64,000 bases of DNA from Paraspadella gotoi. Lineage: Eukaryota > Animalia > Chaetognatha. This document shows, one piece after another, positions 2,162 to 64,000 of this stretch. The translations under genes were made by a program, and so were the position numbers. The notes beneath the pieces were generated by a model. That model was not told where the DNA came from and did no database searches. It saw only the letters and a list, made by a program, of their open reading frames with translations. Positions within the stretch are counted from its first letter, which is position 1; every line of letters starts with the position of its first letter. Location of the stretch: positions 12,825,039-12,889,038 of the forward strand of contig CM119271.1 in the NCBI GenBank assembly GCA_051294375.1, in the 5' to 3' direction.

Positions 2162-5100
2162 CTCAACCCCGGCGGGACGCCCTTCTCCTCGACGATGGGG
2201 AGAGAGAGATCGAGGAATCCCTCGAAGACTTGGTTGACGGTGAGGCATTCGGTGCAGGTGATCGTCGAGATCAGCTGACCACCGAAGATGCTGTCGATCA
2301 CAGTGTGACTAGCCTGAAGGATTTTTCAAAGCAAAACGATTAAAATATAATTATTATTTTTACAAACAAACAAACTCGCCTGTCTTCCGTAGGCCTTGAG
2401 TTTGACTTTGGTCTTCTCGTCGACGCTTTTCGGGTTTACATTTTCCGGGAGACCGAAACTCTTCAAGATGGCCGCCTTCATTCGCTTCGCCTCCTCGGCG
2501 CGCATGGCGTCCAACAGATGGCGCAGGAGTTCGTGGGAATCCTGGGACCGTGGGCACAATCATGCATTTCTACATCATGTACATCTTTTTCACTAATTAA
2601 AGTTCGAATACTTGTTGCTGAAATCCTTTGAATCGCGGGGTTTTTTTGCAGATTTGGGTGAAGAGATTCCCGGGGCTGATGACGGAGAGTTTGGCGCTGG
2701 GGGCGTTCATCTCCGCGAAGAAGTTGACCATCGCCTGGGTGAGTTGCCCGCCGGCTGCGAGGAAAGGTTTGAGTTAATTTCATTTTCTAATACGAATATT
2801 AATTACGAGATTCGACCTGATAAAACGATGTCAAGCGGCGGAAGAGATCCGAGCGACTCTTCGGATCGAGAGGATCGTCGAGCGTCGTCGGAAGCGTCGG
2901 CGCCGATAACGTCTTCGGGAAGGTAACCGGGAAGACAGAGTTTCCTGAACAGAATAGGGGACCGGTGGTTGCTTTAAGCGTCCTTGACAAGTAGGCAATC
3001 AATAAATCTCAACGCCCTACCTGCCATTTTTGACAGTCTCGGCTAGAATGGATTCTACGAGCGGCGTCTGATTCATATTTTGAATGACGGAGTTGAAGAA
3101 ACAAGTGTTGCCAAGATTATTCAATCCTTTGATGATGACGACCTAAAAGTTTTGGAAATAATAATAAAGGATGAGATTAGTGTTAAAGATTAGGTTAGAT
3201 TTGGTAAGAAATTGGGGTTAGATAAAAACGTTAAAAAATTAAAGTTCTCAATTAACGAATAGAAATGAAACTATTGAGTATTGTGGCGGTATATTCACAC
3301 CGCCTCACGTCCACCATCCTGCAGCCAAATCCATTGGCTCAGAGGGGGAACGCACCATCCCAGGCGTTGTGTCCCATCCACAGTCCTCACGACTTCCCTC
3401 TGCGTTGGCAAAGCGAGACCGTCCTAGGGTAACCGCGCCAGTGACTGGAGGCGTCACTGAGGGTCGGAAGCCCCCAAAGCCAACAGTGAGATGCCCCATC
3501 CCAATGGGCATCGCAGGCAACCCGGCTGTTGCCATACTATCGGAAAATAGCGGCCAGAAATTTCGAAATTGAGCCGACCTTTCCAGAGAACGACATCCGC
3601 GAGGACGCGAAGGGTCGCGTCGAAAACTCCGCCTCCGGCTTTTCTCCGCTCGCCTTCTTCACGCCCTTGTGAAGTTTTCCGAGACCCGTCGCTTTGCGGA
3701 TGAAGTTGACGGCCTCCGCGAGAGCCTGGAGGATTCGGGTATGGTCGACTTCAATGTTTTAAACTTAAACTAATTAAACAATCGAGTAATAAAATTAAGC
3801 CTTGGAAGCACCTTCCCGGGTTCCGGTTGAATTTCATCGTCGCATTCGAAACAGTAGACGATCCAAGAGGTGGTGTTGACCACCAGGGCGTGGGAGGCTG
3901 AGCGAGGAACCTTTAAAAGAAAGGACTTTATTTTACATTATAACTTAAATATTATCCATTATTAAATAAGAATTGTTTAGAACAAATAGAAAGATTATCC
4001 CATTTATTTATTAATTAAGCTATCTTTTCCTCGATTATGAACAATGAAGTTATGGTGGGTTACCAACAATATACGGATTATGTAGTCGTACATTGTCATT
4101 TAACAAAATTCTCTTTCAGCGGGGTCCGTCGTCAGGACTTTACATAAGTCCATTACATTGCCCGAAAACAATATTTCACTAATCGATAAGCACTTATTTT
4201 TTCCTCCCCAAATTGCTCTCGCCTTAAAATGCGAAAAGGCGTGTCCGCTAGTGGCGCTGCCGCAGCCCTGATGCCCGCACTGCAGGCAGAGCCATATCGT
4301 TGGCGCCAGAGTCAAAGATTCTGGAGACAAAGCGACCCCGCCGTTTTGTTCCGGCGTCGTGGCCGAGGGTGATTGAGCGCCGTCGACATTCTCGGCGCCG
4401 GACGACGCTTCCTGTTTTCCGTTGGGCGTGGCCTTGCCGGCGCTCGTTTTTCGAGCGATGTTGAGACAAGAGGTACAGTCGCCGGAGACGCCGATTTGGC
4501 GCAGCGCCTTTTTAGCCGCGTTTAAGTTGACGCTCTTATTAACGTGAAGGCAAGTCTGGCCAGAGTTGACGGCGTCCGCTTGAGTTCCTTCGTCGCTCGA
4601 CTCGCTGAAGAGACAGACGAAAAAACAAACTTGAAAACAAAACGAAAAACAAAACAAAATGATAAAAAAATGGTTGTTGCCCGACCTGTTGAGCGCCTCC
4701 CGTTTTCTGAACTTGTGCTTCTTCTTCACCATCCCAGCTCCGTAGGTGAGGCTATCCTCTCCGTCGCGACCGATGCCTCCGATCGCCAATCCTGAAGCTT
4801 GAGCCTGAGACGGCAGGGAAGACTTGCATGGGCCTGAGATGGGGAGAAAATGTGGCAGGAATGATGATTTAATTAATTGATTAATGCGAAGAATATAAAT
4901 ATTCTACCATGGGAGTAGGGACCGATAGCACAAAACTACATATTTTATCGATTGAAAAATAAAAATATGAGTTTATAAACAGATAGTTTTGCTGTGTCAA
5001 TATTCTCTGGCGTGAATGAAATGAAAAGGTATAATGGTATAATATTACAAATAATGAATTAAATGCTAAACAATTCATACAGAAACAGGAGGAACACAGA

Positions 5101-10555: not shown

Positions 10556-10720
10556 CTGAGAGATAGAGAGAGAGAGATCGAAGGAAAGACAAAATTGATA
10601 ATCGAATCAGAAGGACAAATCGACTTCTTAGCGGTTAAAGTACTCACAATGCCCCAGTAACATCAACATTTCGAAGATCAATGGTCATTAATTACAATGA
10701 TGTCATGAATAAAATATATA

Positions 10721-10865
10721 TGAAATTGGTACAACCAATATAAAAATTATCCATTCATTTAATAAATAAGCTATCTTGCCCCTTTGGACAGGCTTTGGTG
10801 GTTTAAGGCCTCTCTCACTCTTACAAGATAATGACATAGCAGGTCCCTGCAAGCTTTCAATCATT
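10721..10865 (+). mobile_element. Dispersed repeat family A (AT-rich short interspersed element)
   Basis: Sequence GAAATTGGTACAACCAATATAAAAATTATCCATTCATTTAATAAATAAGCTATCTTGCCC... recurs at ~11031, ~24431, ~28325-28545 (-), ~45018, ~53645, ~63448 and ~63702-63917 (-). Confidence 0.8.
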
Positions 10866-13005
10866 ATTATATGATTACTCGTCCGATAGCTATTTATCAT
10901 TTTCTTTATTATTTTGTAAAAATATAATTTTAGGAGTGTTGTCGAATGGTCAGAGTTCTAAGTGAAATGTCATTATCGTTTAACTTTTGAAGCTTTAACA
11001 TTAAGCTTTGTAAAAGCTGCAACAGATGTACGAAATTGGTACAACCAATATAAAAATTACCCATTCATTACAACAAATAAGCGATCTTGCTCCTGACTAT
11101 AAACTTCTGCTCATTCTGTTTATATTTCTTCTTCGTCGTTGAAGTTATATTCTACGGATATAACAGGTATCCATACATAATAGTTCGACGTTGCGTTAAA
11201 TAATTCGTCACACGTGAAACATTTTGCAGATCAAACGTCATTTTAATTCAAACCTCTAATTCACACATTACGTGTGTTAGATCCAAAGANNNNNNNNNNT
11301 ACCGACAAATCGCACCTAAATGATTAAACGAAGAAACCCAATGTCCATGAGGGTCATCGGCGAAACGACAACATTGCGCGACCAGATGGCAACGTCACCA
11401 ACAGATTGCAGAAGGACGACGCTAAACTTCGTCTCTTCTTGGTTTTTTTTTCGTCGATTTAATTTTCAAAAGAAGTAAGAATAACTAATATAGCGATCGA
11501 AAATCCTAAATTATTCTTAGTTTAAGCTAAATATATTAAATAAATGTTAAAAACATTGGCAAGGAATTGCACAACAAGTGCATGTGGCCGGAATCCTGGT
11601 CCAAAGGCGACGACAACGACGACGACGACGAAAACTCAAGTTAAAGAAAAACAAAAGACAAAAAGCATAAGAAATTATAATTTTAAATTTATTATTTCAA
11701 TTATTTATTACTTACCATGAATGAAAATAAATGGCAGCGGCTTTCAAGCCAAAACTCGGCATTTTAAATTTTAAAAAAATTACAAGTCATGGCGATCACA
11801 CTCTCGCATACCCACAAAACATAAGCTTCTTTTGAATGTTTTTGCCATATCTTCGCCTGTAAAAAGATCACAAAAACATACGACGAAAGTTGAGAAATTT
11901 AACTGAATTTAATTTAATTTATCACGGGAATTGTCGACTATGATCAAGATCATGATCAAGATGGCACTCTCAGTTTTCTCCCGTCCTCGTCAGTGCCAAG
12001 TGCTCCGAAGCTGTGAAATGAATACTTCTTTAGAGGGGAAATACTGCAAAGCTAAGCTCAGACGAGCATCTGATCTCGCCTCACACATTCATCGTTGAAC
12101 AGTTCAAGGAGACAATGTCACTGTATAAGGATCGGCTCCATCCATGATCGCAAATTAACCAAACGGCTCGGTCAAAGCTCGAAATTGACCAGATGCCGGT
12201 CAGCCCAGGCAGCAAAACCATTAATAAAACTTTCATTTCGAAAGGAAAGAGTAAATTCCTTGCTCTTCTTCGGAACTACTTGGATTCTAAAGACGGCTGA
12301 TACGTCAGGGTCATCGGATTTCTCATCAACATTTAATGAAGATTCCAATTCAATCGGAAGGAAGAATCAATAAAAAAAATATTAAAAAAATTCAGACAAT
12401 GCCTGACAAGATTTTTAAGTTCTCTTTTATCTCTAATTCTGAATTAACATCCTGACTTTTTTTTTTCTTTAATCTTTTCTCAGGAAACCAGAAGCAGTGG
12501 AATAGATTAAATAGATTTTTAATCTTAAAATCGATTTTCGAATCCGCGATTTTCGCGTGTCCGTCATTCTCTATTCTGATTGGTCCAAATTCTTTCGGCC
12601 TTATCTCTAGACTTGTCTCGACCCGATCCTTCAATTGGTCCAGCCGTCTAGGCAACCCGGGCGGCGTCGGCTGCGGCGGACGGCGGCGGCTGCAGCGGCG
12701 GGTCGGCGCTCGTTACCAGGCACGAGAGAGGTTTCCAAGTGGACGCCAGCGACTGGACAACTTGATAAGAAACTCTGACCAATTTTTTTTCCGACGTCGA
12801 GTAAATATCCTGGGTCTTTTTACGGACAATTCGCGATACGAAACGTGGAGACGACGATTTGTTACGAAATTGTATTCCAGATAAATTTAAGAAATAAATT
12901 AAATCTTAATATTAATATATATATTAATTAAATGAAATCGAAAATATAGTATTGAACAAACAGTGAAAATTGTTATTAGTCAGTGAGAGAACCAATATAA
13001 TTATA

Positions 13006-13081
13006 AGCAGTCCCTGAGCTTCGGATCAGTCTGTAACACCGTGTTACAGGCGGGTTAAGCGCCCCGTCCCTATTAACTGCT
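13006..13081 (-). ncRNA. Candidate twister ribozyme, P5-type permutation
   Basis: Minus strand: P5 AGCAGTT/GACTGCT; AATA linker; P2 GG/CC (third pair A-C); GA-CGG; minimal P1; U^AA (predicted cut 13057/13056); GC; P3 CTGTAACA/TGTTACAG; P4 CTGA/TCAG closing loop TCCGAAGC. Loop CCG pairs with CGG. Confidence 0.72.
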
Positions 13082-13082
13082 A

Positions 13083-13155
13083 GGCGACCACCGGGCTAAA
13101 ACCCCGGACCTTTGGGCTGGGAGGCGAATGACTTGCCTCCTGCTCCAATGGCTGC
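13083..13155 (-). mobile_element. tRNA-derived (SINE-like) Pol III head, degenerate tRNA-Gly-like
   Basis: GCAGCCA/TGGTCGC acceptor-like stem, A-box-like TGGAGCAGGAGG, TCGCCTCCCA, T-arm CCGGG-GTTTTAG-CCCGG. The anticodon stem does not pair, so it is not a functional tRNA. Confidence 0.55.
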
Positions 13156-13511
13156 TGATGAACGGTTGGTGGATTTTAGTCCACCATAGTATGTATTTTT
13201 CTTAAGCTTCTTCCATTCATTGTTTATTTCTATAATTAGCTAATTAACTAACCAAATCTAATTATTTTAATCTCTTTTTCTGTCAAGATTCGAAAAAAAT
13301 TGTGAGCAAAAAAATGGTCATCGGCAGAGGCCACCAATCGCCGCGGACAGCATCGTGACTCTGACGCGAGGGACGGTTTGGACGGTGACGATTTTTCACT
13401 ACGATCACGATTAATCACGACAAACTCAAAATTTAAAATCACGACCTCGCTGTACGCGTTGCTACGATATCGAATCTAAGATATACTGGTAGGTCTTTCA
13501 CTCTCTCTCTT

Positions 13512-14312: not shown

Positions 14313-24184
<9,872 letters not shown>

Positions 24185-27757: not shown

Positions 27758-28883
27758 CACCTGCGCAGATTTGATGGTTTCCGTCGCAGATTTTGAGAAA
27801 AATAAATAAATTATTGAAAAAAACATTTTATTTTCGCCCGTTAATTTCGACGGGCGCTAACGAACCGTTAAAAATTATTACAAATTATTACAGATTATTA
27901 CAATTCATTAGAGAGAGGCATTTACGAAATTCGCACAACCAATATCTGTTTATTTATCATTAAATAAGATATTTTGCCTTCTGAATTTGGACCGTATTAT
28001 TAAATATAATTAAATATTATTAAATATTAACCACGAAAGTAGACAAACGAGAAACTCTCTCTAATTTCCTCATAGGTCCATCGTTAGACCGAAACGAAAT
28101 TGGGTACTATTTTCCGAAAGCGGCCCAGTCCTGTTTTTAATTTTGAAATTTAATGTTATCTCAAATATTTTATTTTTTTTATATAAATATTTAATTTATT
28201 CTTTAATCCTTAACTGTAAACCTAATCACAAGTCTTAATCTCTCGAATCATTAACTAAACCTTAACCCTTAACCTTATTTAGCTTAACCATTAATTTAAT
28301 CTTTAAACTTAATCAATTATATATTGAAATATTATACCACTTCATTGATAGGGAAGCCAGGTTCACTGGGAGTGAATAAACAAGTCTGTGCGAGAGGCTT
28401 GATTAAAAGCTTGCAGAAACCTGTTATGTTATTATCTTGCAAGTGTGATGGAGACCTTAAACCACCGAAGCCTGTCCAAAGTCAGGGACAAGATAGCTTA
28501 TTTATTAAATGAATGGATAATTTTTATATTGGTTGTACCAATTTCATATTTAAGCGTAAGACACTTTAGAAAAAAAAAGACGCGGCCCAAAATCGCTTTT
28601 CTCCACCATGAGAAAAACTCGAATTAACTCGAATTTTAATCAAAACTATTTTTCTTTTTCCAGGAAAAAAAAAACAGAAAGAAAAAAATGGATCGCAAAG
28701 AATTCGATTCGATTCGTTAGTAAAAACTTTTTCTCGAATTCTTACGCTTTTTTTTTCAAATTCCGCAGGAAAATTTCAAAAAAAAAAAAAAAAAATTTAA
28801 TTAAATAAATACTACTACTAATATTTCGGATAAATAGAAAAAAAAAGGTAACAAAAAAAAAAAGTCCTTTTTTCCTCGCGTAA

Positions 28884-36620
<7,737 letters not shown>

Positions 36621-41143: not shown

Positions 41144-42723
41144 CCTCTCTCTGTCTCTCTCTCCCCCCCCTCTCTCTCTCTCTCTCCCCCTCTCCCTCTC
41201 TCTCTCTCTCAAATTGTCTTCTGACTCCTACAAATCCGCTTCCCTTTTGTTTTTTCAACTCAGACGTTCCCATGCTGCCCACTTGCGATCACGTGATGGA
41301 TCTTCCTCCTCTTCCTCCTCCACCTCCGTGCGGCGAGGTCCCCATCCCTCCTCCTCCTCCTCCTCCGCCGCCGGACATGCTGGTCGATCCGGAGGACGCT
41401 CCGCCGCAGCTGCCGGATCCGGTCATGGCCGAGGAGATTCCGCCGCCGCCGTGCGCTCCGCCGGACGATACCATCTTGCCGCCGCCGGTGCCTTGCTTCC
41501 CGCTCGATCCTCCGGCCGCCGCGATGAACAAATGCGACATCGGAGACGCGACGGGTAACAACAGCAGGGGCGGCGACAGCAGCGGCGGGGACGAGACGGG
41601 TAACAACAGCAGTCGCGGCATCGGCAGCAGGGATAAGACGAGTAACAACAGCTGCCGAAGCAGAGAGAGAAGGAGCAAGAACGTCAATAGAGACGAGATC
41701 AGCAGCCGCAGCAGAGACAAGACGGGTAACTACAGCATCGGCAGGGACGAAACGGGCGACAACAGCAGCGGCCTCGTCGTCAAAAAGGAAAGGGTCGTAG
41801 CGAAGTCGTCGTCGTCGTCTTCGCCGCCTCCGCCGCCGCTTCCGCCGCAGCTGCTGACGTCTGTCACCTCGTCGCCGCCAGCGTCCGTATCCTCTTTCCC
41901 GAGGGCGCCTTCGTTTGCGGCGCCATCGTCTCCGCCGGCGTCGTCGTCGCCGCGCGGCGGACTCATTGACTTGACGCCGAAATCTGAGACGCAGAGAGAT
42001 GAGGGAGAGACGACGACGATGGCGACGACGAAAGAGACGATGGCGACGACGACGAATGAGACGATGGCGACGACGAAAGAGATGATAGCGACGACGACGA
42101 CGACGACGACGACGATAGAGGGCGTTGGAGACGGAGATGACACGACAGGTTCGTCTGACGGTTTGTCTTACATGTTTCGTCCGTCTGTCTGTCCGTCGGT
42201 AAGTGCCGTCTATCTATCCGTATATGGCTCTTTGTCCGACTGTCTTTCCTGTCTGACTTTCTGCTCGTTTGCCTTATCTGTCTGTCTGATTTTTGTTGTT
42301 TTTGTTTTTTTGTTTATCACGCCTTCGTTTTCGTTCTTTTATTAACTTTTTTTAAAACTTTTTTTCTTTAATTTTTTTTTAAATTTTGTTTTTTATTTTC
42401 ATTATCACGAGCCACGAGAGCTTAGATCAATTGTTGTTGTTGTTGTTGTTTGTTTGTTTGTTTTTTTCCCTTTTTTCGTAAAAATTGAAGAAAAAAAAAC
42501 CCGATTATTTTCTCGTTATTTCTTTTTCTCTCTCCGTCCAGAGACGGACGCAGCCCTGCAGTCGCCGCCGCCACCGCCGCAGCAGCCGCCGAAGAAGAAG
42601 AAAAAGCGAAGCAAGAAGAAGAAGGAAAAGAGCGAAGACGCCGCAGCCGCTGACGAGTCCAACGCCTGGTCGTCACCGGAATCGTACGCTGCGTCTCTCA
42701 TGAAACTCTTTCCTAGAAAATGA
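38852..42723 (+). CDS. Orphan Pro/Cys-rich protein with mitochondrial presequence-like N-terminus and one TM helix (~800 aa, 5 exons, gap inside exon 2)
   Basis: Exons 38852-39061, 39588-40653, 40873-40964, 41264-42148 and 42542-42723 join in matching phases. Arg-rich N-terminus without acidic residues, hydrophobic VVGLVVVGAAGAGLAY, 3x (DDYKCPPPKPKPCC) repeats, poly-Pro tracts. Confidence 0.7.
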
Positions 42724-43676
42724 GGATAAAATAAGGGGGAGGGAGAGGGAGAGAGTGGGAGAGAGGGAGAAAGAGAGGGAGAGAGAGAGAGTGGGGAGGG
42801 AGAGGGGGGGAGGGAGGGGGAATGGTCAATGAGGAAACGTCGTCGTAAATTGAAAACTGAAAAGGAAAATAAAACTGTGTTTATTTAATTAAATATTTAT
42901 TAATTATTTTTTTATCAAGGAAATTAGAGTATAGGGATTATGATATAATGATATTGTTACAGAAAAGAAAAGAGAGGAAAAGGGGAGGAAAGGAAAGAAA
43001 AGAAAAGAGAGGAAAAGGGGAGGAAAGGAAAAGAAAGAAAAGAGAAAAAGAGGAGGAAAGAAAAGAAAAGAGAGGAAAAGGAGAGGAAAGAAAAGAGAGG
43101 AAAAGGGGAGGAAAGGAAAGAAAAGAAAAGAGAGGAAAAGAGGAGGAAAGAAAAGAAAAGAGAGGAAAAGGAGAGGAAAGAAAAGGAAAGAAAAGAGAGG
43201 AAAGAAAAGAAAAGAGAGGAAAAGGGGAGGAAAGAAAAGAAAAGAGAGGAAAAGGAGAGGAAAGGAAAGAAAAGAATAGAGAGGAAAAGGAGAGGAAAGG
43301 AAAGGAAAGAAAAGATAGGAAAAGAGGAGGAAAGGAAAGAAAAGAAAATAGAGGAAAAGGGGAGGAAAGGAAAGAAAAGAAAAGAGGAAAAGAGGAGGAA
43401 AGAAAAGAAAAGAGAGGAAAAGGGGAGGAAGTGAAAGGAAAGAAAAGGAGTGGATTGCTAAAGAAGAGTAGGGGATAGGACGAAATAGTGAAAGAACGTA
43501 GGATGTAGGAATATAGTATTTCAATTTGTTGTATTTCGTTAGAGAGGATAAAATAGTCAATATTAAAAAGTTGACAGATAAAATAGAATAGAATAAAATA
43601 GGTGAGTTTAAAGTAAGATCGGGTAGGTGAGGTTACGACAGGAGCGTGACAACACGGAGAGAAGAGAATGGTGAGC

Positions 43677-43707
<31 letters not shown>

Positions 43708-43826
43708 TGAGAGTGAGAGTGAGAGAGAGCGATAGAGAAAGCCTCTTTGAATTCATGGTCCTTTGCGACTCACGGAATCGCGTTAGTTTTTTTCCTCTTT
43801 TTTTTTGTCCGAGAAACGACTTTCTC

Positions 43827-43885
<59 letters not shown>

Positions 43886-43973
43886 TCTCTTCCATTTTCG
43901 TCCGCGTCATCGAGACCATTTCGTCTCTTCCTTTCAAAGGCTTTTCCCCCCTCGAAAAGTGTCTCTTTCTCTG

Positions 43974-44074
<101 letters not shown>

Positions 44075-44490
44075 CATCCTTCCATGTTAACCTTTCTTCT
44101 CACTTTTACCTTGGGAAGCCGTTTTTTAATATTTAACTTAGAGTTTAAAAGCTTTCTTGTGTACGGTATTGTATTTGTTTGTATTTATTTAGTATTTCAG
44201 TTCATCTCTTTTCCTTCAATTTTCTATCTGTCATTTCTTGACCATCTTTCGCTTCATCTATCAATCATATTTTTCTATTTTCTATTTTCTATTTTTCGCA
44301 TTCCATTATTTTCGTCTTTGTCCTGTCATTTCAGCCATCTTTCTTATTCCGTCGGCGGCCATCTTTGTTTTTTCTTTTCAGCCTCGTTTCCGAATTTTTT
44401 TTTTCTTCGTTTACTTTCGCTTCGTAGGAACTTTGCTCGACGACGAATCTTCTCTTTCCGTCCGTCGTCGTCGTCGTCGTCGTCGTCGTC

Positions 44491-44522
<32 letters not shown>

Positions 44523-44696
44523 CTCTCCTCTCTCGTCTCTCTCTTCTCTCTCTCTCTTCTCTCTCTCTCTCTCTCTCTCTTCATATCCACGATTCAATTC
44601 TTTGTTTTCTTTTTGTTTTCTTTTCTGTTTTATTTCCTTTCTTCGCTTGTCTCTCCGTTCCTTTCCCGGGAAAATAAACACGTTTCGCGTCGAAGC

Positions 44697-44816
<120 letters not shown>

Positions 44817-46975
44817 GAAAGGATACGATAGAAATAAAACGGAAACAAGAAGGAAGGCATGATGGAGAGAAGGAAGAAGGAAAAGAAGAAAAGCAATGCA
44901 TACAAAGTCCCAAGCCTTGGGCCAAGGCCCAAGTTCCACGAATTCAACGCTTTATCCCAACACCTCCCATTCGTTATTATTCGGCCTTGAACTTTGAATG
45001 ATAATCGCACTAATCACGAAATTGGTACAACAAATGTAAAAACTATCAATTCAATTAATATATAAGCTATATTACCACTGGCCATTGGCTACGTCCTACA
45101 CACAATGTTCTTTCTGACCTCGCGCTTTCGGGGTCGCACGTTCGAGGCGTCTCCCGTTCAAAATGTACGACCGGAGTTTTCGAATTGTAATGTTTTACTA
45201 TCCAAAAAACCCGTCGAAACTAAGTTTCAAACGGGCAGACGCCAGTACATGATTCGATCCAGAGATTGAATGACAAGCTATCAAAAGGTAAACCAATAGG
45301 TTTCATAGTCTCACGGCCAGTCGAGTTTGACCTAGACAAATCAGACGCTGAGAAAGAAAGGCGGAACTTAATATCTCTCTCACACAAACTATCAAACTAA
45401 CAAAAAAAATCTTAAAAGCATAATATCGTCGCAATCGCATAAAAAAATCTGGATTGACGACAAATTTTGATATTAAAAAAAATAAAATTTGAGAAAATAA
45501 AATTAATTTATAAACAGAAAGAAAAATTATATTTTATAAATTATAAATTAAAGTTACAGTTTCTGAAAAAAAAGAAGAAAAAAAAATGTCATTGTTAAAA
45601 AATAAACTAATCAGCAGACGCAGCCCCTGAAAAAAAAAACGAAACAAAAACCTGATGTTGCGATAGCAAAATGATAACATGCACGAATGCAGTGCTTAAT
45701 TTTACGAGTTCAATCCTATTTCAATTTTTTTTTAATAAAAACGCAGAGAGAAAAAAAGAAAGAAATAAAAAAGCAGCAGCAGAAGCAGCAGGAGAAAAGA
45801 GAGATAAAGAATAAGCCCTGCAGAGCCAGCTGCAGACTCAAAAGGCAGCAGCAGAAGCAGCAGGAGAAAAGAGAAAAAGAATAAGCCCCTGCAGAGCCAG
45901 CTGCAGACTCGTTTTTTTCCTTATGACAAGGGAAAAGAGAGAGGGAGAGAGACATGTAATTAAAAGAGAAAAGAGAGAGAGAAAGAAATATGAAAATAAA
46001 AGAGAGAAATTTTTTTTGTTTTGCTAAAACGTAAACAAAACATATTTAATAACTATCCAGACTCAATTTTAAGCACATCAATGATGAGAAGCTGTATATA
46101 AATTTTCAGCTTCATACACCCAAATTTAATCATAAAAAAGGCGATCTATAATTTGGAACGCCGACGATGACGACGACGACGACGACGCCACTTATGGGCA
46201 AAAGCGTTACAATATCGTCGCAAACGCTAAGCGATTGCGACGATAAAAATTAAAGTATCAGTATTTTTTTTAATTCAAATTATTTAAACCAAAAAAAAAA
46301 CCATCAAGTATAAAAAAGAAGCAACGTTAACGGAATGTTCAAATTTTCAACAATTTTAATTAGTAATAATGTGTTCGCTCTTTAAAGTCTCACGCGTTTC
46401 ATAGTAAGACATTTCGTAAGAAAAGAGGCTCTTTCATACCAACTACTCTATTCTACTATTCTGCCATAATATATTTTCAGATATTACAATTTACTTCGAT
46501 TCCAATTGAAATCGATCTGGGAGGAATTCGCTCAGAAATCATTGATTAGCTGAAACACACGATGAATTTTTTTCTCCTTTCCAATTACTACAATATGCAA
46601 ATGAGATTAAATTACTATAATTCGTCTCTGTTTATGATCAGAGTATAAACCAATATTTTATTAAAAACAGGAGACGTTGACAGTTTCAGCGATTTTCAAG
46701 AATTTGAGTCCAACATTTAAAGTTTTGTTTACAGCAGATTCCGGGAAGGAGTGAAAATGAGTTTAATTTAAAAAAAAAAAACCGTTTCACTATTTGGTTA
46801 TGATTTTTCTTGATATATAAATGTAAATGCAAGCTGCATTAATCAATAGATAAATTAATTAATGGAATTAATTCACCGCCAATGATCGTGGGCTCAAACT
46901 TGTTTCCTTTATATAGCTCTCTTTAATTTTTTGTTTTAGGATAAACTGCTTCTAATCCGTCTCTTCTCCCTCTCT

Positions 46976-47043
<68 letters not shown>

Positions 47044-48966
47044 ACTCTTCCTTTAAAACTTTTTCTAATCTTTTTAATCTTTCTCGTTTTGTTTTTCCGT
47101 CTCTCGCCAATTAAGTCCCGCATCACGTCCTCGTTCGTCGTCGTTGTTCGTCATCGTCGTTCGCCGTTGTTCGTCGTCGTCATCGTCCGTTATCATCGTC
47201 GTCGTCGTTCATCGTCTTAGACGTTGTTCATCGTCGTCGTCATCGTCGTCGTCGTTTTCTTCCGAGGGACCATGAGGTCAGCTGTCTGAAGCGAAAGAAA
47301 GGGATTTTTCGATTTAATTTTTTTTTTCACAAAACCATTCACAAACTTTCTTCGAGTCTAATGATCACAAACAACGCCAAGCGTTTACGGTATTAATTTT
47401 TAAACAATAACTACACTCTTTAATTTAAAAAAAAAAAGAGTAATATTTATCGAATCGGTTTTTTTTAGATGGGACGCGGGGGGCAAAGCCTCGATCGGGA
47501 TTTCCGCATTGCGGTGAATCGAATGGCCAGAGTGGTTACTCATTCGACTCGAGAAATCCGCCAAGGATGAAAAAAGCCAATTCGCGTTAAGGATGAATGA
47601 AAAAAAAAGTTTTCGTTTAGGAAAAAATATTTATAAAGATTTCAAAGAAAAATAAAATAAAGAAAACAATTTTCATTTGTAAATTTTAAGGATTTGTTTA
47701 TTTTTTTCAAAAAATATAACAATTTTTTAAAACACTTTTTTTACAAAGAAAGAAAAAAACTTTTAAAAAACCCCTTCGAATAATGATATGGAGAAATTAC
47801 CTTAAAACTTAATACTTTACGAACACAAAGACAAAGGAGCATCTTCGCATCGATTTAACTCGACGTTTACACGCGCGAGTCTTCGACTTTACATTCGAAT
47901 TAAGATCCCGGATGTAACCGCATTGTAACCAGTAACACAGACAGAGTTAATCAATCCTTCGCTGAGAATTAACGTCGGAGTTTTAAAAAGAACCCGGAGT
48001 AATGGCCAAGCGATTGATTTGCTTGATTGATCGATCGATAGTGGTTGATTCACAATTAAATATTTCTTAGGTTTCTTGCATGTACATGTACAATTGTACA
48101 TGTACATTTTACAAATGTTTCAAGCCGGCTTTTTAAAAAGTTTTCGAATTTTCCTCTGAGTTAAACTTTCTTTAATTTTTGCAGAAAATACGTGAGATCG
48201 TCGTCATCTACATCTGGACATAAAATACCTTTTTTTGTTTTCTTCGAATAAAAAAAAAAAAACAAAACAAAACAAAACAATAAACAGGATCAATTATCGG
48301 ACGAAACTGCAAAAAAAAAAACAACAAAAAGACAACCACATTTATCATTTTTCGTCATTCCATCGAAACCACGCCGTCAGCATCATGGTAAGTTTATATT
48401 GTCCTTTAATGGTCATTGCATAATTGCATATACAATAATTATATATATATACCGTTTATTATCCAACTAAATGATGATGTTAACAATTAAACATTTTTAA
48501 TGAATTTACGAAACGGTGATTTTTTTTCAAATATAATTTTTTTTTCTTCTATCCAATCGTTAAGAATATTTTAGTTACTTCGTGTTTTCGCGGGTTCAAA
48601 GAATTTAGGGTATAAAATTCCCCCCCCCCACGCCTTGCCTTTTCGTCCTTTGGCCACTTATGGCCAGTTGTTAATTATGAGCAAAAGTGTTTTTTTAAAA
48701 ATTGTTTTGAAAAACAACCTTGGGAAACATTCTACGATCTACATTCTACAAGGAGACGATGATACTGAATAATCGACAACTCGTGTTCCGTAATTTTCTT
48801 TTAATTATTATGTTTGTGAATATAAACATCTAACAAATAACAAACAACGATTCGCGAAAAGGGAAAAAAAAATAATAACAATAAAAAAAGTAAATGAGAG
48901 AGAAAAAAAAAAGTTTTTCTCAGAGGCGACGTGAGCAGCGAAAGCCTCCAGGTGCGAAACCAGAAG

Positions 48967-49005
48967 TTATTGGATTTTTTTTTTCGGCCGTGAATGGATT
49001 CCGTA

Positions 49006-49040
<35 letters not shown>

Positions 49041-49580
49041 TTTCATCTTCGTTATCGTCGTAGTAGTCGTTGTCATCATCGTCTTCGTTGTCATCATCGT
49101 TCTTGTCATCCCTTTTATCGTCTTCATCGTTGTCGATGCTAAGGTGATCCACATCAGTGATATCATCGTTGTCAGTATCGACACCGTTCCAAATGATTTT
49201 GTCATCGCCATGATTATCGTCATCAGTGTCGGCCTTTTCGTACTCGTCAACGTCGTCATCAGCATCGTCGTCGTTCTCCTTGTCAGCTTCATCCTCCTCG
49301 TCATTTCTGTCGTCTTCATCTTCTTTGTCAACTTCATCATTCTCATCGTCTTCGTCATTCGTCGTCTTCCACATAGTAATCTCTGTCATCTTCATCGTTC
49401 TCATCGTCGTCGTTTTTGTCATCGTCGTCGTCCTCATCATAATCTCCATCGTCTTCGTCGTTCTCATCGTCGTCGTCTTCGTCATCGTCGTCGTCATGAT
49501 TGTCGTCGTCATCGTCCTCGTCATCTCTGTCGTCGTCGTCGTCGTCGTCGTCCCAATATATCCTCGGTTTCCACGGCGAG
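48967..49580 (-). other. Asp/Glu/Asn-rich coding-like segment (possible acidic protein exon or decayed GAC microsatellite)
   Basis: Two D-rich frames separated by a frame switch/TGA at ~49355; second copy at ~57640-58230. Confidence 0.35.
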
Positions 49581-50119
49581 AGTCAAAGGAGGTCGAAGGT
49601 CAAAGGTCGAACTTCTTTCCCGTCGACGGAACAGAGAATGAGGCCGATGCGGTCAAAGAAGGTGCAGGCAGATAAGGTGCAGGCAGAGAAGGTGGAAGGG
49701 GAAGGGTCGTGCAGTGAGAGAAGGTGCAGGCAGAGAAGGTGCAGGCAGAGACGGTGGAAAAGGAAGGGTGGTGCAGTGAGAGGTGCAGGCAGAGAAGGTG
49801 CAGGGCAGAGACGGTGGAAGGGGAAGCGTCGTGCTGTGAGAGAAGGTGCAGGCAGAGAAGGTGGAAGGGGTAGGGTTTTGCTTACGTTGATTGCAGCAAC
49901 CCTAGGTTTTACTTGCGTTGATTGCAGCAAACGAAGGTTTTGTTTACTTGGTTTGCAGCAACCCTGGGTTTTGTTTACAAGTTTATTGCAACAAATCTTG
50001 GTTTTGTTTATGTCGATTAAACGTCGGCGTTTTGCGGCAACTTTGGTTCAAAGGTAGCGATTTATTGCAGTTAATAGCAGATGGCGCTAAGCTAACTCAG
50101 ATCAAATTGCGTTACGTCG

Positions 50120-50275
50120 ATGAAATAGTGACGCAACGTCAATGGCGCAAAGACGCTTCGTCGATGACGCAGTGACGCCACATAATTTGCGCAACGAACC
50201 GGAAATCCCGAAGCGATTTTTCCTCGATCTTCGTTTCTCGTCATTTGAGCCTAAAATGGCGACACTCGACGTACA
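50120..50275. promoter_or_regulatory. Housekeeping-type promoter motif cluster
   Basis: Several TGACGC motifs, CCGGAAAT (ETS-like) and AAAATGGCG (YY1-like); duplicated at ~58840-58985. No gene assigned. Confidence 0.35.
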
Positions 50276-50302
50276 CGTATTCGACCTTTGAGAGCGAGAG
50301 GG

Positions 50303-50353
<51 letters not shown>

Positions 50354-50359
50354 TCTCTC

Positions 50360-50490
50360 TATCCATCCAAATGTGAAAATTTGTCACTTGAACCTACGTA
50401 GTCGTCTCTCTGTCTCTCTCTGTCTCTCTCTCCTCTCTCCCTCATCCATCCAAATGTGACAATTTGTCACTTGAACCTACGCAGTCGTCT

Positions 50491-50553
<63 letters not shown>

Positions 50554-50656
50554 CTCTCTCTCTCTCTCTCTCCCGTCATCCATCCAAATGTGACAATTTG
50601 TCACTTGAACCTACGTATCGTCTCTCTCTCTCTATCTCTCTCTCTCTCTCTCTCTG

Positions 50657-50719
<63 letters not shown>

Positions 50720-50765
50720 TCCATCCAAATATGACAATTTGTCACTTGAACCTACGTAGTCGTCT
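50360..50765. repeat. 4 copies of a ~45-bp unit with an internal palindrome, separated by (CT)n
   Basis: CATCCATCCAAATGTGACAATTTGTCACTTGAACCTACGTAGTCG; again at ~59073-59475. Confidence 0.85.
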
Positions 50766-51242
50766 CTCTCTCTCTTCTCTCTCTCTCTTCTCTCTCTCTT
50801 CTCTCTCTCTCTTCTCTCTCTCTCTCTCTCTCTCTCTCCTCCCTCTCTGTCCTCTCTCTTCCCGTCTTTTAACTCTCTTTCTCCCTCATAGCTCGACACG
50901 TCTGCCCTTCTATCAAAATACCGCCTTTCTCGAAAATAAAATTCGTAGATTCGTCGTTGTTTGATGGGCGCCGCCTAAGGGACGCCGCCTAATGGGCGCC
51001 ACCAAAATAGCGCCATCTTGTGGGGTCGACGCCGTCCAGATTCTCTAAATGTTAAGAAAGGAAATGAGAACGAAATCTCACACCTGCGCTAAGGGGAAAA
51101 AACTAATCTTTTTTTCTCTCTCTCTATCTCTCTCTCTCTCCTTCTCTATCTCTCTCCCTCTCTCTCTCTGTCCCTCCCTCGCCCTCAATCCGGCACAAAC
51201 AAACAAACAAAACTCGACCGAGTGACTCTCGCGAGTGAAAAC

Positions 51243-59948
<8,706 letters not shown>

Positions 59949-60031: not shown

Positions 60032-60398
60032 CTCTCTCCCTCTTCCTCTTCCTCTCTCTCTCTCTCTCTNNNNNNNNNNNNNNNNNNNNNNNNNTCTCTC
60101 TCTCTCTCTCTCGTCCACCTGAGCTGATGAACAACAGAGAAGGGGATTCACTCAAGCTAAGTCTTGGTTAAGCCGTCTGCCAGATGCCTGATTCCATTGC
60201 CCTTTTGACATATTCGCCTGTCGCCATTTGTCAATTGCCAGTTGCCATTTGCCACCGGTCAGAGGCCATTCGTCAGATATCAGATGTCTCTTGCTAAGTA
60301 CAAGATGCAAGTTTCTTTATCTGCCAGCTGCCTAAGGTCATTAGCCAGATACCGATTGCGGGGCTTAATTTTTCTTCAATGACCCGTTTTCTTTTAAG

Positions 60399-60795
60399 TT
60401 GCGCCGCGAGTACTCACGGAGCAACTCTATTGATCACTTTTCGGTCCGTTGGTCCTTCTGTCCGTCGGTCTGTATTGTATTGTATTGTATTTATTCATAC
60501 AGCGGGTCCGAGGACCATGGGCCACAGTGGTTTAACTTACGTTAAAAATGTTCATTTGTTAAGACAGGATAAAACCTCAAATTTATGGGACTGCTAGCGC
60601 CGCCTTCAGGAAATAAAAGACAAAAGACAAAATTCCGACGCAGTGCTTGTCATAAATACACGGGCTCAGAAAGTTATGGGAGTCATATAGTCATGTCAAG
60701 TCACGTCATGTCATATAATGTCATGTCGTGTCACGAGAAACACATGTGATAAGGCAGTCACTGCGGCGCAACATATTTGAATTACCGTTCTTGTT
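60399..60795 (+). mobile_element. Non-autonomous Helentron-like element, second copy
   Basis: Same 5' palindrome, CTGCTAGCGCCGCCTT internal block and 3' CACTGCGGCGCAAC...GAATTACCGTTCTTGTT as 35106-36075. Confidence 0.65.
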
Positions 60796-61835: not shown

Positions 61836-62340
61836 AACAAGATCGGTCCATCCAATGTGTTGCGCCGCAGTGAATTTCCCTGTGATCACATGACTACATG
61901 ACTCGGAAATTTATGTATAACAATTGTCTTATGGTTGATTACTACTCTGCACAGTTTCATTTCAAACAACCAGACATTACACGAAATGTGCCGCATTTAC
62001 TTTGTGATCACCTGACTGTAGTTTTGCGTGACGTGGTCACGTGACTACATAAGTATGAAACGCATGCACAAGAAGTATTTCAAATGTAATGTCCTACCTG
62101 TCTACCAAGTATTAACTAAAATAACTTTCTTAGCCCGTGCATCGGAATTCCGTCTTTTATTTCAGTCTCTTAGATTCCAGGTTTTTTCCTGTCTTAACTA
62201 TACTATAGAGCCAAACTATACTTAGGGTTAGGGTTAGGGTTATAAGCATTTTGAACAAAAGTGGGATAGACCTACCGTCATATCGACCGACCGATAGACC
62301 GACCAAAAAGTGACTTGTAGAGTTGCTCCGCGAGTACTCG
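61836..62340 (-). mobile_element. Non-autonomous Helentron-like element, third copy (5' truncated, different interior)
   Basis: Reverse-complement termini: AACAAGATCGG...TTGCGCCGCAGTG and AAGTGACTTGTAGAGTTGCTCCGCGAGTACTCG. Confidence 0.6.
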
Positions 62341-63436: not shown

Positions 63437-63447
63437 GGTAAAAAGGA

Positions 63448-63917
63448 TATAAAATTATCCATTCAGTTAATAAACAAATAATGTCCCAGACTTTGGACCG
63501 GCTATTGTTTTTTAAGGCCTCCTTCTCTCTTACAAGGTAATAATATTGCAAGACCCTGTAATCTTTAAATCGAGACTCTTTCAAAGTCTGGTTTATTAAC
63601 TTGCAGAGTACCTGGCCTCCCTATCAATAAATTTATATAATGTATTTTAATAATACTTAAGCTTAAGGTAGTGGTCTTTTCATAAAATTGAAACATTCTT
63701 TGAAATATTATACCACTTCATTGATAGGGAAGCCAGATAATCTGGGAGTGAATAAACGAGACTGAGAGAGAGTCTTGATCAAAAGCTTGCAGGGACATGC
63801 TATGTCATTATCTTGTAAGAGTAATTGAGGCCTTAAACCACCAAAGCCTGTCCAAAGTAAGGGGCAAGATAGCTTATTTATTAAATGAATGGGTAATTTT
63901 TATATTGGTTGTACAAG
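63448..63917. mobile_element. Inverted pair of repeat family A (MITE-like foldback)
   Basis: 63448-63660 is a diverged reverse complement of 63702-63917. Confidence 0.6.
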
Positions 63918-64000
63918 TTTTTTTTACATCTCTTGTCGCGTGACATTTCGCCTCATGTCATGATTCTAAGTTGGATGATGACGAGGATGAGAAGGAGGAA

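What the first reader, a model, noticed from the sequence alone, without database searches (positions are those of the whole stretch)
13006..13187. tRNA-headed Pol III-like element carrying a P5-type twister ribozyme
Seen (minus strand): a 5' hairpin TGGTGGA/TCCACCA, a degenerate tRNA-like head with A/B-box-like motifs, then immediately a motif with all twister elements in P5-permuted order. Known: the common twister core reads UAA-P2-GC-(P3)-CCGG-UCCCAAGC-CCGG...GAGGG. Here P4 is CUGA/UCAG and the 3-bp pseudoknot is CCG/CGG, so the changes are compensatory in both. Twisters are known from animal non-LTR retrotransposon UTRs, and P5 is, to my knowledge, the rarest permutation. Inference: a SINE-like or stand-alone Pol III RNA that self-cleaves at 13057/13056, separating the tRNA-like head (2',3'-cyclic phosphate) from a 5'-OH fragment. 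P1 is minimal and P2 has one mismatch, which could be a homopolymer error.
Basis: partly seen in the sequence, partly recalled or inferred. Interest (0 to 1): 0.86.

Follow-up and report, generated by a model that had tools for sequence, protein, structure and literature searches.

The report
Mobile repeat carrying permuted twister ribozyme
A short, very abundant DNA repeat of an invertebrate joins a tRNA-like head to a predicted self-cutting RNA (a twister ribozyme in an unusual arrangement) and likely spreads as DNA with the help of a rolling-circle transposon, which would scatter a promoter-plus-ribozyme cassette through the genome.

Summary
The motifs are real. On the minus strand a 72-nt tRNA-shaped head (13155-13084) is followed by every twister core base in type-P5 order, with both pseudoknots complementary. 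It is the only match in 128 kb; 1 of 2000 shuffled windows match under a descriptor written after seeing it. The locus is one copy of a dispersed repeat of about 220 bp (summed depth 2,600-24,000 times the flanks). Rfam misses it. Its 3-nt P2 is normal for type P5 (26 of 37 phage examples). Its long P3, near-absent P1 and family-wide P2 mismatch are not, and the twister fold costs 5.8 kcal/mol, so activity is uncertain (about 40%). The mismatch is no sequencing error. The repeat starts 33 nt before the head, shows no copy ends at the cleavage site, and no tandem majority. Read on the + strand it ends in a 9-bp inverted repeat plus hairpin, like Helitron2/HINE elements, though the other arm lies too far inside. 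Best reading: a HINE-like DNA element carrying an Sm-alpha-like Pol III/twister cassette. This copy's B box is broken. No expression or cleavage data.

The parts
12970..13192 (.). whole dispersed repeat copy (both ends approximate; the 12970 end is poorly defined)
   Evidence: depth step and loose ends; the tail seen in other copies aligns by eye to 12970-12993 (2 mismatches in 15 at 12979-12993)
13167..13186 (+). terminal hairpin (7-bp stem, 6-nt loop), 2-6 nt from the shared end; Helitron2/HINE-like 3' hairpin on the + strand
   Evidence: loose ends at 13188-13192 with heterogeneous A/T-rich flanks
13159..13167 (+). 9-bp inverted-repeat arm directly upstream of the hairpin, 21-25 nt from the end
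   Evidence: its perfect complement stands in the loose-end consensus before 13002 in runs X1, X5, X6, X8 and X9
13084..13155 (-). 72-nt tRNA-derived head (acceptor and T arm at canonical spacing, D/anticodon arms rearranged; not a functional tRNA)
   Evidence: no ARAGORN or Rfam tRNA hit
13136..13148 (-). degenerate A-box-like stretch
   Evidence: sequence, compared with a recalled consensus
13093..13103 (-). B-box-like stretch; this copy has a private change at 13099 that adds a second mismatch and makes a T4 run (13101-13098)
   Evidence: (98% of depth differs at 13099)
13007..13080 (-). twister-like motif in type-P5 order: P5 13080-76/13011-07; P2 13071-69/13054-52; G13068; T1 13066-64/13024-22; P1 remnant 13063-58; predicted cut 13057^13056; T2 13051-50/13019-18; P3 13049-42/13038-31; P4 13029-26/13017-14
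   Evidence: compared with Table 1 of PMC8501958 and natural type-P5 loci
12970..13002 (+). decayed second inverted-repeat arm (lost in this copy) and about 20-nt terminal segment
   Evidence: loose ends

Best explanation
The locus is one copy of a very abundant dispersed repeat of about 220 bp that holds a tRNA-derived head and a twister-like motif in type-P5 order, and that likely moves as DNA, as a non-autonomous Helentron/Helitron2-like (HINE-like) element. Shown: the repeat nature, the shared ends, the motifs, and the inverted repeat plus hairpin. Inferred: a Rep-helicase of an autonomous partner would recognise the inverted repeat and hairpin on the + strand and copy the element by rolling circle, so full-length copies spread whatever the RNA does. 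The passenger on the minus strand was probably an Sm-alpha-like unit (Pol III tRNA-type promoter followed by a ribozyme related to the RTE-retrotransposon twisters). In copies with an intact B box, Pol III would start near 13155 and the twister would cut at 13057^13056 (activity about 40%). That would give a roughly 99-nt tRNA-like RNA with a 2',3'-cyclic phosphate and the same 3' end at every insertion site. This window's copy is probably silent or stops at the T4 run.
For: Depth over 13022-13176 is about 18,700, 23,600, 3,200 and 2,600 times the flank in X1, X5, X6, X8; 8382 contigs laid in X1. Sharp end at 13188-13192 with flank agreement of only 0.40-0.48 in most rows. A perfect 9-bp inverted repeat sits directly upstream of a hairpin and 21-25 nt from the end. 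PMC3627910 describes the Helitron2 3' end as an 8-15 bp repeat 20-30 bp from the end, immediately upstream of a hairpin. 33 shared bases lie upstream of the head, outside an expected Pol III transcript. No listed loose-end class or consistent depth step at the cleavage site. One X8 contig at about 70 times flank depth carries a deletion in the G run at 13068, so altered cores also multiply. Two other HINE-looking families occur in the window. Twister identity; a 3-bp P2 is typical of type P5. Changes above 5% lie only in the P3 loop end, the linker and the acceptor stem, where two keep the pairing.
Against: The second inverted-repeat arm lies about 11-20 or more nt inside the other end, against 0-2 nt (Helitron2) or 2-4 nt (mite HINE). 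No clear 5' hairpin. 9 bp is shorter than the 11-15 bp of HINEs. No autonomous partner, empty site or individual flanks could be examined (no genome held). A 7-bp direct repeat flanks this copy (13192-13186 and 12952-12946) and could be a target-site duplication. Its left arm overlaps sequence shared by other copies, and my arithmetic puts the chance at about 0.2-0.3. A tRNA head with a variable A/T-rich tail also fits a SINE. Against activity: no covariance-model hit; family-wide A.C in P2; P1 of 6 nt against 16-39 in 37 phage examples; a competing 4-bp hairpin makes the P2+P4 fold 5.8 kcal/mol worse than the minimum (9.3-9.6 with the head), against 0-5.5 in 34 controls, 26 of them 0.0; 1-3% decay changes also hit core bases.
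Confidence: 0.5

Rival explanations
1. A tRNA-derived SINE: Pol III transcript, twister-derived body that is inactive or slow, and a LINE-recognised tail at 13002-12970, copied by target-primed reverse transcription.
For: tRNA head with A/B-box-like stretches; size; variable A/T-rich tail; a possible 7-bp target-site duplication; poor predicted twister folding would spare the template.
Against: 33 shared bases upstream of the head with a sharp end cannot come from an internal Pol III promoter of the same copy. The inverted repeat plus hairpin is unexplained. No poly(A) or clear microsatellite tail in the 30-letter loose ends.
Confidence: 0.25
2. An Sm-alpha/retrozyme-type element: a few tandem master loci are transcribed by Pol III, the twister cuts multimers into monomers that circularise, and reverse transcription of the circle from a fixed point gives the dispersed copies.
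For: Promoter followed by ribozyme is the Sm-alpha layout (PMC6765202); monomer size fits metazoan retrozymes (PMC7761336); it would explain sequence upstream of the promoter and an intact internal ribozyme.
Against: Flanks at 13188-13192 are heterogeneous, not tail sequence. No head-to-tail joint among those listed (15 shown, 20 not shown). No copy ends at the cleavage site. Short contigs could hide rare arrays.
Confidence: 0.15
3. The twister resemblance is coincidental; the stretch is an ordinary structured body of a repeat, and the competing 4-bp hairpin is its real fold.
For: No covariance-model support; P2 probability 0.0 in nested folding; descriptors written after the fact.
Against: 1 of 2000 shuffled windows; both pseudoknots complementary with two-sided changes; P3, P4 and the junction resemble the Schistosoma twister in sequence; the 3-nt P2 co-occurs with P5 order as in natural examples.
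Confidence: 0.1

Closest known systems
Type-P5 twister ribozyme (Rfam RF02684)
   Same: Order of blocks, core bases, T1 and T2, P4 and L4; 3-nt P2, which 26 of 37 phage type-P5 loci have fully paired, four of them above the Rfam cut-off.
   Different: Has an 8-bp P3 (phage examples: a 3-5 nt junction in 36 of 37), a real P5 helix, a 6-nt P1 remnant (16-39 nt there), a P2 mismatch, T1 CCG/CGG; no model hit; sits in an animal repeat.
Schistosoma mansoni type-P1 twister of Perere-3 (RTE clade) retrotransposons (PMC8501958)
   Same: Similar P3 sequence, P4/L4 layout and junction; mobile-element context; weak P1 is tolerated there.
   Different: Those are type P1 with a 4-bp P2, at the 5' end of an autonomous LINE, and cleavage defines the element end; here the motif is permuted and internal.
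Sm-alpha-type SINE-like repeats with hammerhead ribozyme; metazoan retrozymes (PMC6765202, PMC7761336)
   Same: Short non-coding repeat with a Pol III promoter and a self-cleaving ribozyme.
   Different: Twister, not hammerhead; dispersed single copies, not tandem arrays; ends not at the cleavage site; inverted repeat plus terminal hairpin.
HINE / DINE-1 / non-autonomous Helitron2 (PMC4067079, PMC3627910, PMC7492417)
   Same: Short, non-coding, very high copy; asymmetric inverted repeat; 3' arm directly upstream of a terminal hairpin; T-rich flank at that end.
   Different: 5' arm too far from the end, no clear 5' hairpin, no microsatellite or tandem core; carries a tRNA head and a ribozyme instead. 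None found in print.
Theta ribozymes (tRNA-linked HDV-like ribozymes of gut phages; recalled, the search gave no paper on them)
   Same: Ribozyme directly 3' of a tRNA-like unit.
   Different: Different class; here the predicted cut is 27 nt past the acceptor stem, and the head is no functional tRNA.

Membership tests
twister ribozyme | Conserved core bases (U^AA, GC, G-A, 8-nt L4 ending AAGC) in a circularly permuted order | tested here: met
   reference layout
twister ribozyme | Pseudoknots T1 and T2 complementary | tested here: met
   3/3 and 2/2 Watson-Crick
twister ribozyme | P4 helix | tested here: met
   4 bp, pair probability 0.75-0.89; the family-majority base at 13030 would add a fifth pair
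twister ribozyme | Fully paired P2 (4 bp in PMC5408937; 3 bp common in type P5) | tested here: not met
   length normal for type P5, but only 2 of 3 pair; the family-majority G at 13072 could pair with A13071 bulged (inference)
twister ribozyme | P1 helix (typically at least 2 bp; inefficient cleavage without it, PMC8501958) | tested here: inconclusive
   6 nt, 1-2 possible pairs around a very short loop
twister ribozyme | Score above the Rfam twister models | tested here: not met
   own model R2
twister ribozyme | Site-specific self-cleavage | not testable with these tools
   needs in vitro assay
HINE / Helitron2 non-autonomous element | 3' inverted-repeat arm 20-30 bp from the end, directly upstream of a hairpin | tested here: met
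   13159-13167, then hairpin 13167-13186, end 13188-13192
HINE / Helitron2 non-autonomous element | 5' arm 0-4 nt from the 5' end, part of a hairpin or palindrome | tested here: not met
   11-20 or more shared bases precede it in most loose-end classes; only a weak internal palindrome
HINE / Helitron2 non-autonomous element | Insertion in T-rich sites without target-site duplication (empty sites) | tested here: inconclusive
   T-rich flank consensus at the hairpin end; one 7-bp flanking repeat; no empty sites available
HINE / Helitron2 non-autonomous element | Autonomous Rep-helicase partner with the same ends | not testable with these tools
   no genome held
tRNA-derived SINE | tRNA-related head with A and B boxes | tested here: met
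   boxes degenerate, consensus recalled
tRNA-derived SINE | 5' end at the Pol III start, close to the head | tested here: not met
   shared sequence runs 33-37 nt further upstream
tRNA-derived SINE | Poly(A) or short-repeat tail related to a LINE, and target-site duplications | tested here: inconclusive
   only 30 letters of loose ends visible
Sm-alpha / metazoan retrozyme | Tandem monomers or ends set by the cleavage site | tested here: not met
   not for the majority of copies; rare arrays not excluded
Sm-alpha / metazoan retrozyme | Abundant circular or monomeric RNA | not testable with these tools
   no RNA holder listed

The most novel reading that the evidence does not exclude
A rolling-circle DNA transposon family has spread thousands of copies of a working Pol III promoter plus an active animal type-P5 twister (with P3, a 3-nt P2 and almost no P1). 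Each intact copy makes a tRNA-like RNA with a ribozyme-defined 3' end. This would be the first ribozyme-bearing Helentron-type element and a natural minimal-P1 twister form that current models cannot see.
Probability: 0.25. Interest if true: 0.85.

Novelty: new variant of a known kind. Interest (0 to 1): 0.68.

Why it matters
It points to a twister form (P5 order with P3 and a vestigial P1) that three Rfam scans and a purpose-built model miss, so animal genomes may hold many more twisters than counted. It links a ribozyme to what looks like a DNA-mobilised element, whereas the eukaryotic ribozyme-element links in the papers read here are all to retroelements. It offers thousands of natural variants and a one-afternoon assay to ask how far P1 and P2 can shrink, and whether such a ribozyme supplies 3' ends for dispersed Pol III RNAs.

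Tried and rejected
Rfam scans: whole window gave only an SRP RNA; local scans at E<=10 gave chance hits. ARAGORN: none. No genome held. No RNA holder listed; X6 is only guessed to be RNA and was treated as DNA. Runs X10 and X11 (other organisms) laid nothing, which is no proof of absence. Gapped motif scans: 83 metagenome and 3 viral matches, none of 86 similar to the element or with both P2 and P4. A 20-mer found nothing in viral or prokaryote contigs. No second copy in the window. Model R1 included the window's own sequence and was not used; R2 was built without it from 34 of 37 type-P5 loci (dropped L109, L122:86-170, L198) and did not find the locus. The folding part had P4 off by one and is replaced. 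I first took the 3-nt P2 as disqualifying (PMC5408937 says 4 bp); reversed that. A class of copies ending right at the inverted repeat (13004 rows) was considered, but its consensus changed, so it is not claimed. A 21/25 match to the SRP gene (E 0.88) was treated as chance. Earlier-findings look-ups were empty. Not done: no Pfam scan of all frames for a Rep-helicase, and no folding of the family-majority sequence.

Full report
Setting. The window is animal DNA: a metazoan SRP RNA gene at 18739-19039, and exons of a tektin, a cation-efflux transporter and a zf-UBP protein. The named tektin relatives are molluscs, a brachiopod and a nemertean at 64-73% identity, with one unnamed protein at 97%, so the host is an invertebrate, probably protostome. 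The locus lies about 3 kb upstream of what look by eye like the first tektin exons (that exon has no Pfam hit). No genome is held.

Observation. The twister descriptor finds only this site in both strands. Shuffles give 18 of 150 windows for the loose form with P1 or P5 order, and 137 of 2000 (loose) or 1 of 2000 (strict) for P5 order. The tRNA geometry is also unique. These descriptors were written after seeing the motif. Rfam finds no twister or tRNA at E<=10, and ARAGORN finds no tRNA.

It is a repeat. Laying public contigs shows summed depth over the element about 18,700, 23,600, 3,200 and 2,600 times the flank in X1, X5, X6 and X8. The tool warns that this is no copy number, so I read it as thousands or more. 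One end is sharp at 13188-13192 with unrelated A/T-rich flanks. At the other end most copies continue past 13002 with the perfect complement of 13159-13167 and about 20 further bases, of which 12970-12993 is a decayed version. The window's copy differs from the family majority at 13030, 13072, 13099, 13117, 13141, 13144 and 13153. 13153 breaks an acceptor pair; 13099 spoils the B box and makes a T4 run.

Is it a twister? Against Table 1 of PMC8501958 (section 17), the core bases match, P3 is similar in sequence, and T1 and P4 differ on both sides of pairs. PMC5408937 (passages) gives P2 as 4 bp and warns that a changed length may disturb the active site; here P2 has 3 nt. I therefore collected natural twisters with one 16-base core motif (133 loci, 113 distinct contexts). 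The script classed 58 as type P1 (1 with a 3-bp P2), 37 as type P5 (26 with a paired 3-bp P2, 10 with 4 bp, 1 doubtful) and 18 as neither. Of the 20 loci scanned, 6 passed RF02684, four of them with 3-bp P2. The sample is biased by the motif, but a 3-nt P2 is plainly normal for type P5. The Rfam type-P5 model has a long P1 and no P3, the reverse of this motif, which likely explains the miss; my model from 34 of the 37 loci shares that shape and also misses. Descent from a twister: about 90%.

Is it active? Against: the P2 mismatch is family-wide (no variant at 13071 at 1%); P1 is 6 nt against 16-39; a 4-bp hairpin joining the T1 and P2 strands makes the P2+P4 fold 5.8 kcal/mol worse than the minimum, against 0-5.5 in 34 controls, 26 of them 0.0 (pseudoknots are not modelled, and only this copy was folded). 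Decay changes of 1-3% reach T1, T2, P2 and U13057, and one high-depth X8 contig has a core deletion. For: changes above 5% fall only at the P3 loop end (13041, 13042), the linker (13081) and the acceptor stem (13084, 13087, both keeping pairs); none is listed at 13055, 13056, 13067, 13068 or in P4/L4; the majority bases at 13030 and 13072 would strengthen P4 and perhaps P2; weak-P1 twisters still cut (PMC8501958, sections 17 and 19). About 40%.

How does it move? A SINE route must explain 33 bases upstream of the promoter and an uncut template. A retrozyme route predicts tandem arrays or ends at the cut; neither appears among listed rows (many rows are not shown). On the + strand the end reads inverted-repeat arm, hairpin, 2-6 bases, T-rich flank. 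PMC3627910 (passages) describes this for Helitron2, and PMC4067079, PMC5148889 and PMC7492417 (passages) describe related ends. The other arm lies 11-20 or more bases inside, which fails the 5' criterion, so I say it works like a HINE and do not file it as one. Two other families in the window show HINE-like hairpins and a (GTCN)n microsatellite, which suggests the machinery has acted in this genome. A 7-bp flanking repeat is the main point for a retro route and is weak. Odds: HINE-like 0.5, SINE 0.25, retrozyme 0.15, coincidence 0.1.

What is known. The closest layout is the Schistosoma SINE-like repeat with a Pol III promoter and hammerhead (PMC6765202, passages and section 11 part 2; the name Sm-alpha is recalled). 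PMC7761336 (passages) mentions truncated active twisters at RTE 5' ends. PMC10085705 (passages) recounts the three circular permutations without taxa. Searches for twister with SINE and tRNA-derived (0), ribozyme with Helentron (2 reviews, listing only), self-cleaving ribozyme with Helitron and twister (0), type-P5 with eukaryote (2), and searches showed no report of this combination. The library lacks most subscription papers, and I read no supplements; the original twister lists could contain eukaryotic type-P5 cases.

Verdict. A real, abundant mobile repeat with a tRNA-derived head and a twister-derived motif of an unmodelled shape. A new variant of known kinds; mechanism and activity are inferred. 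Interest 0.68.

Noticed in passing
window 35100-35230 (+), 60392-60473 (+), 62239-62340 (-): Repeat family with a 13-bp-arm hairpin after a T run, followed by a (GTCN)n microsatellite, like the left end of DINE-1/HINE elements.
   Followed up: partly
window 28324-28544, 63700-63920, 63447-63652, 10715-10863, 11020-11098, 45018-45079, 53646-53704, 3962-4043: Second repeat family of about 220 bp with an imperfect subterminal inverted repeat and a short terminal hairpin followed by TTT; many pieces keep only that end.
   Followed up: partly
window 18739-19039 (-): Full-length metazoan SRP RNA gene (218 bits), lying between exons of the tektin gene on the opposite strand.
   Followed up: no
window 42596-51242 and 51243-59948: Adjacent 8.7-kb duplication at 94.7% identity; a tandem duplication or two haplotypes assembled in series.
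   Followed up: no
L089, L093, L103, L104 and other loci: In phage contigs a 3-bp P2 is the commonest form of type-P5 twisters (26 of 37) and nearly absent in type P1 (1 of 58), although a review gives P2 as 4 bp. Many sit just upstream of a ribosome-binding site and start codon, and several contigs hold two.
   Followed up: partly
window 13040-13068, run X8: One contig at about 70 times flank depth carries a 1-nt deletion at 13068, a 2-nt deletion at 13040 and a change at 13061: an amplified subfamily with an altered ribozyme core.
   Followed up: no
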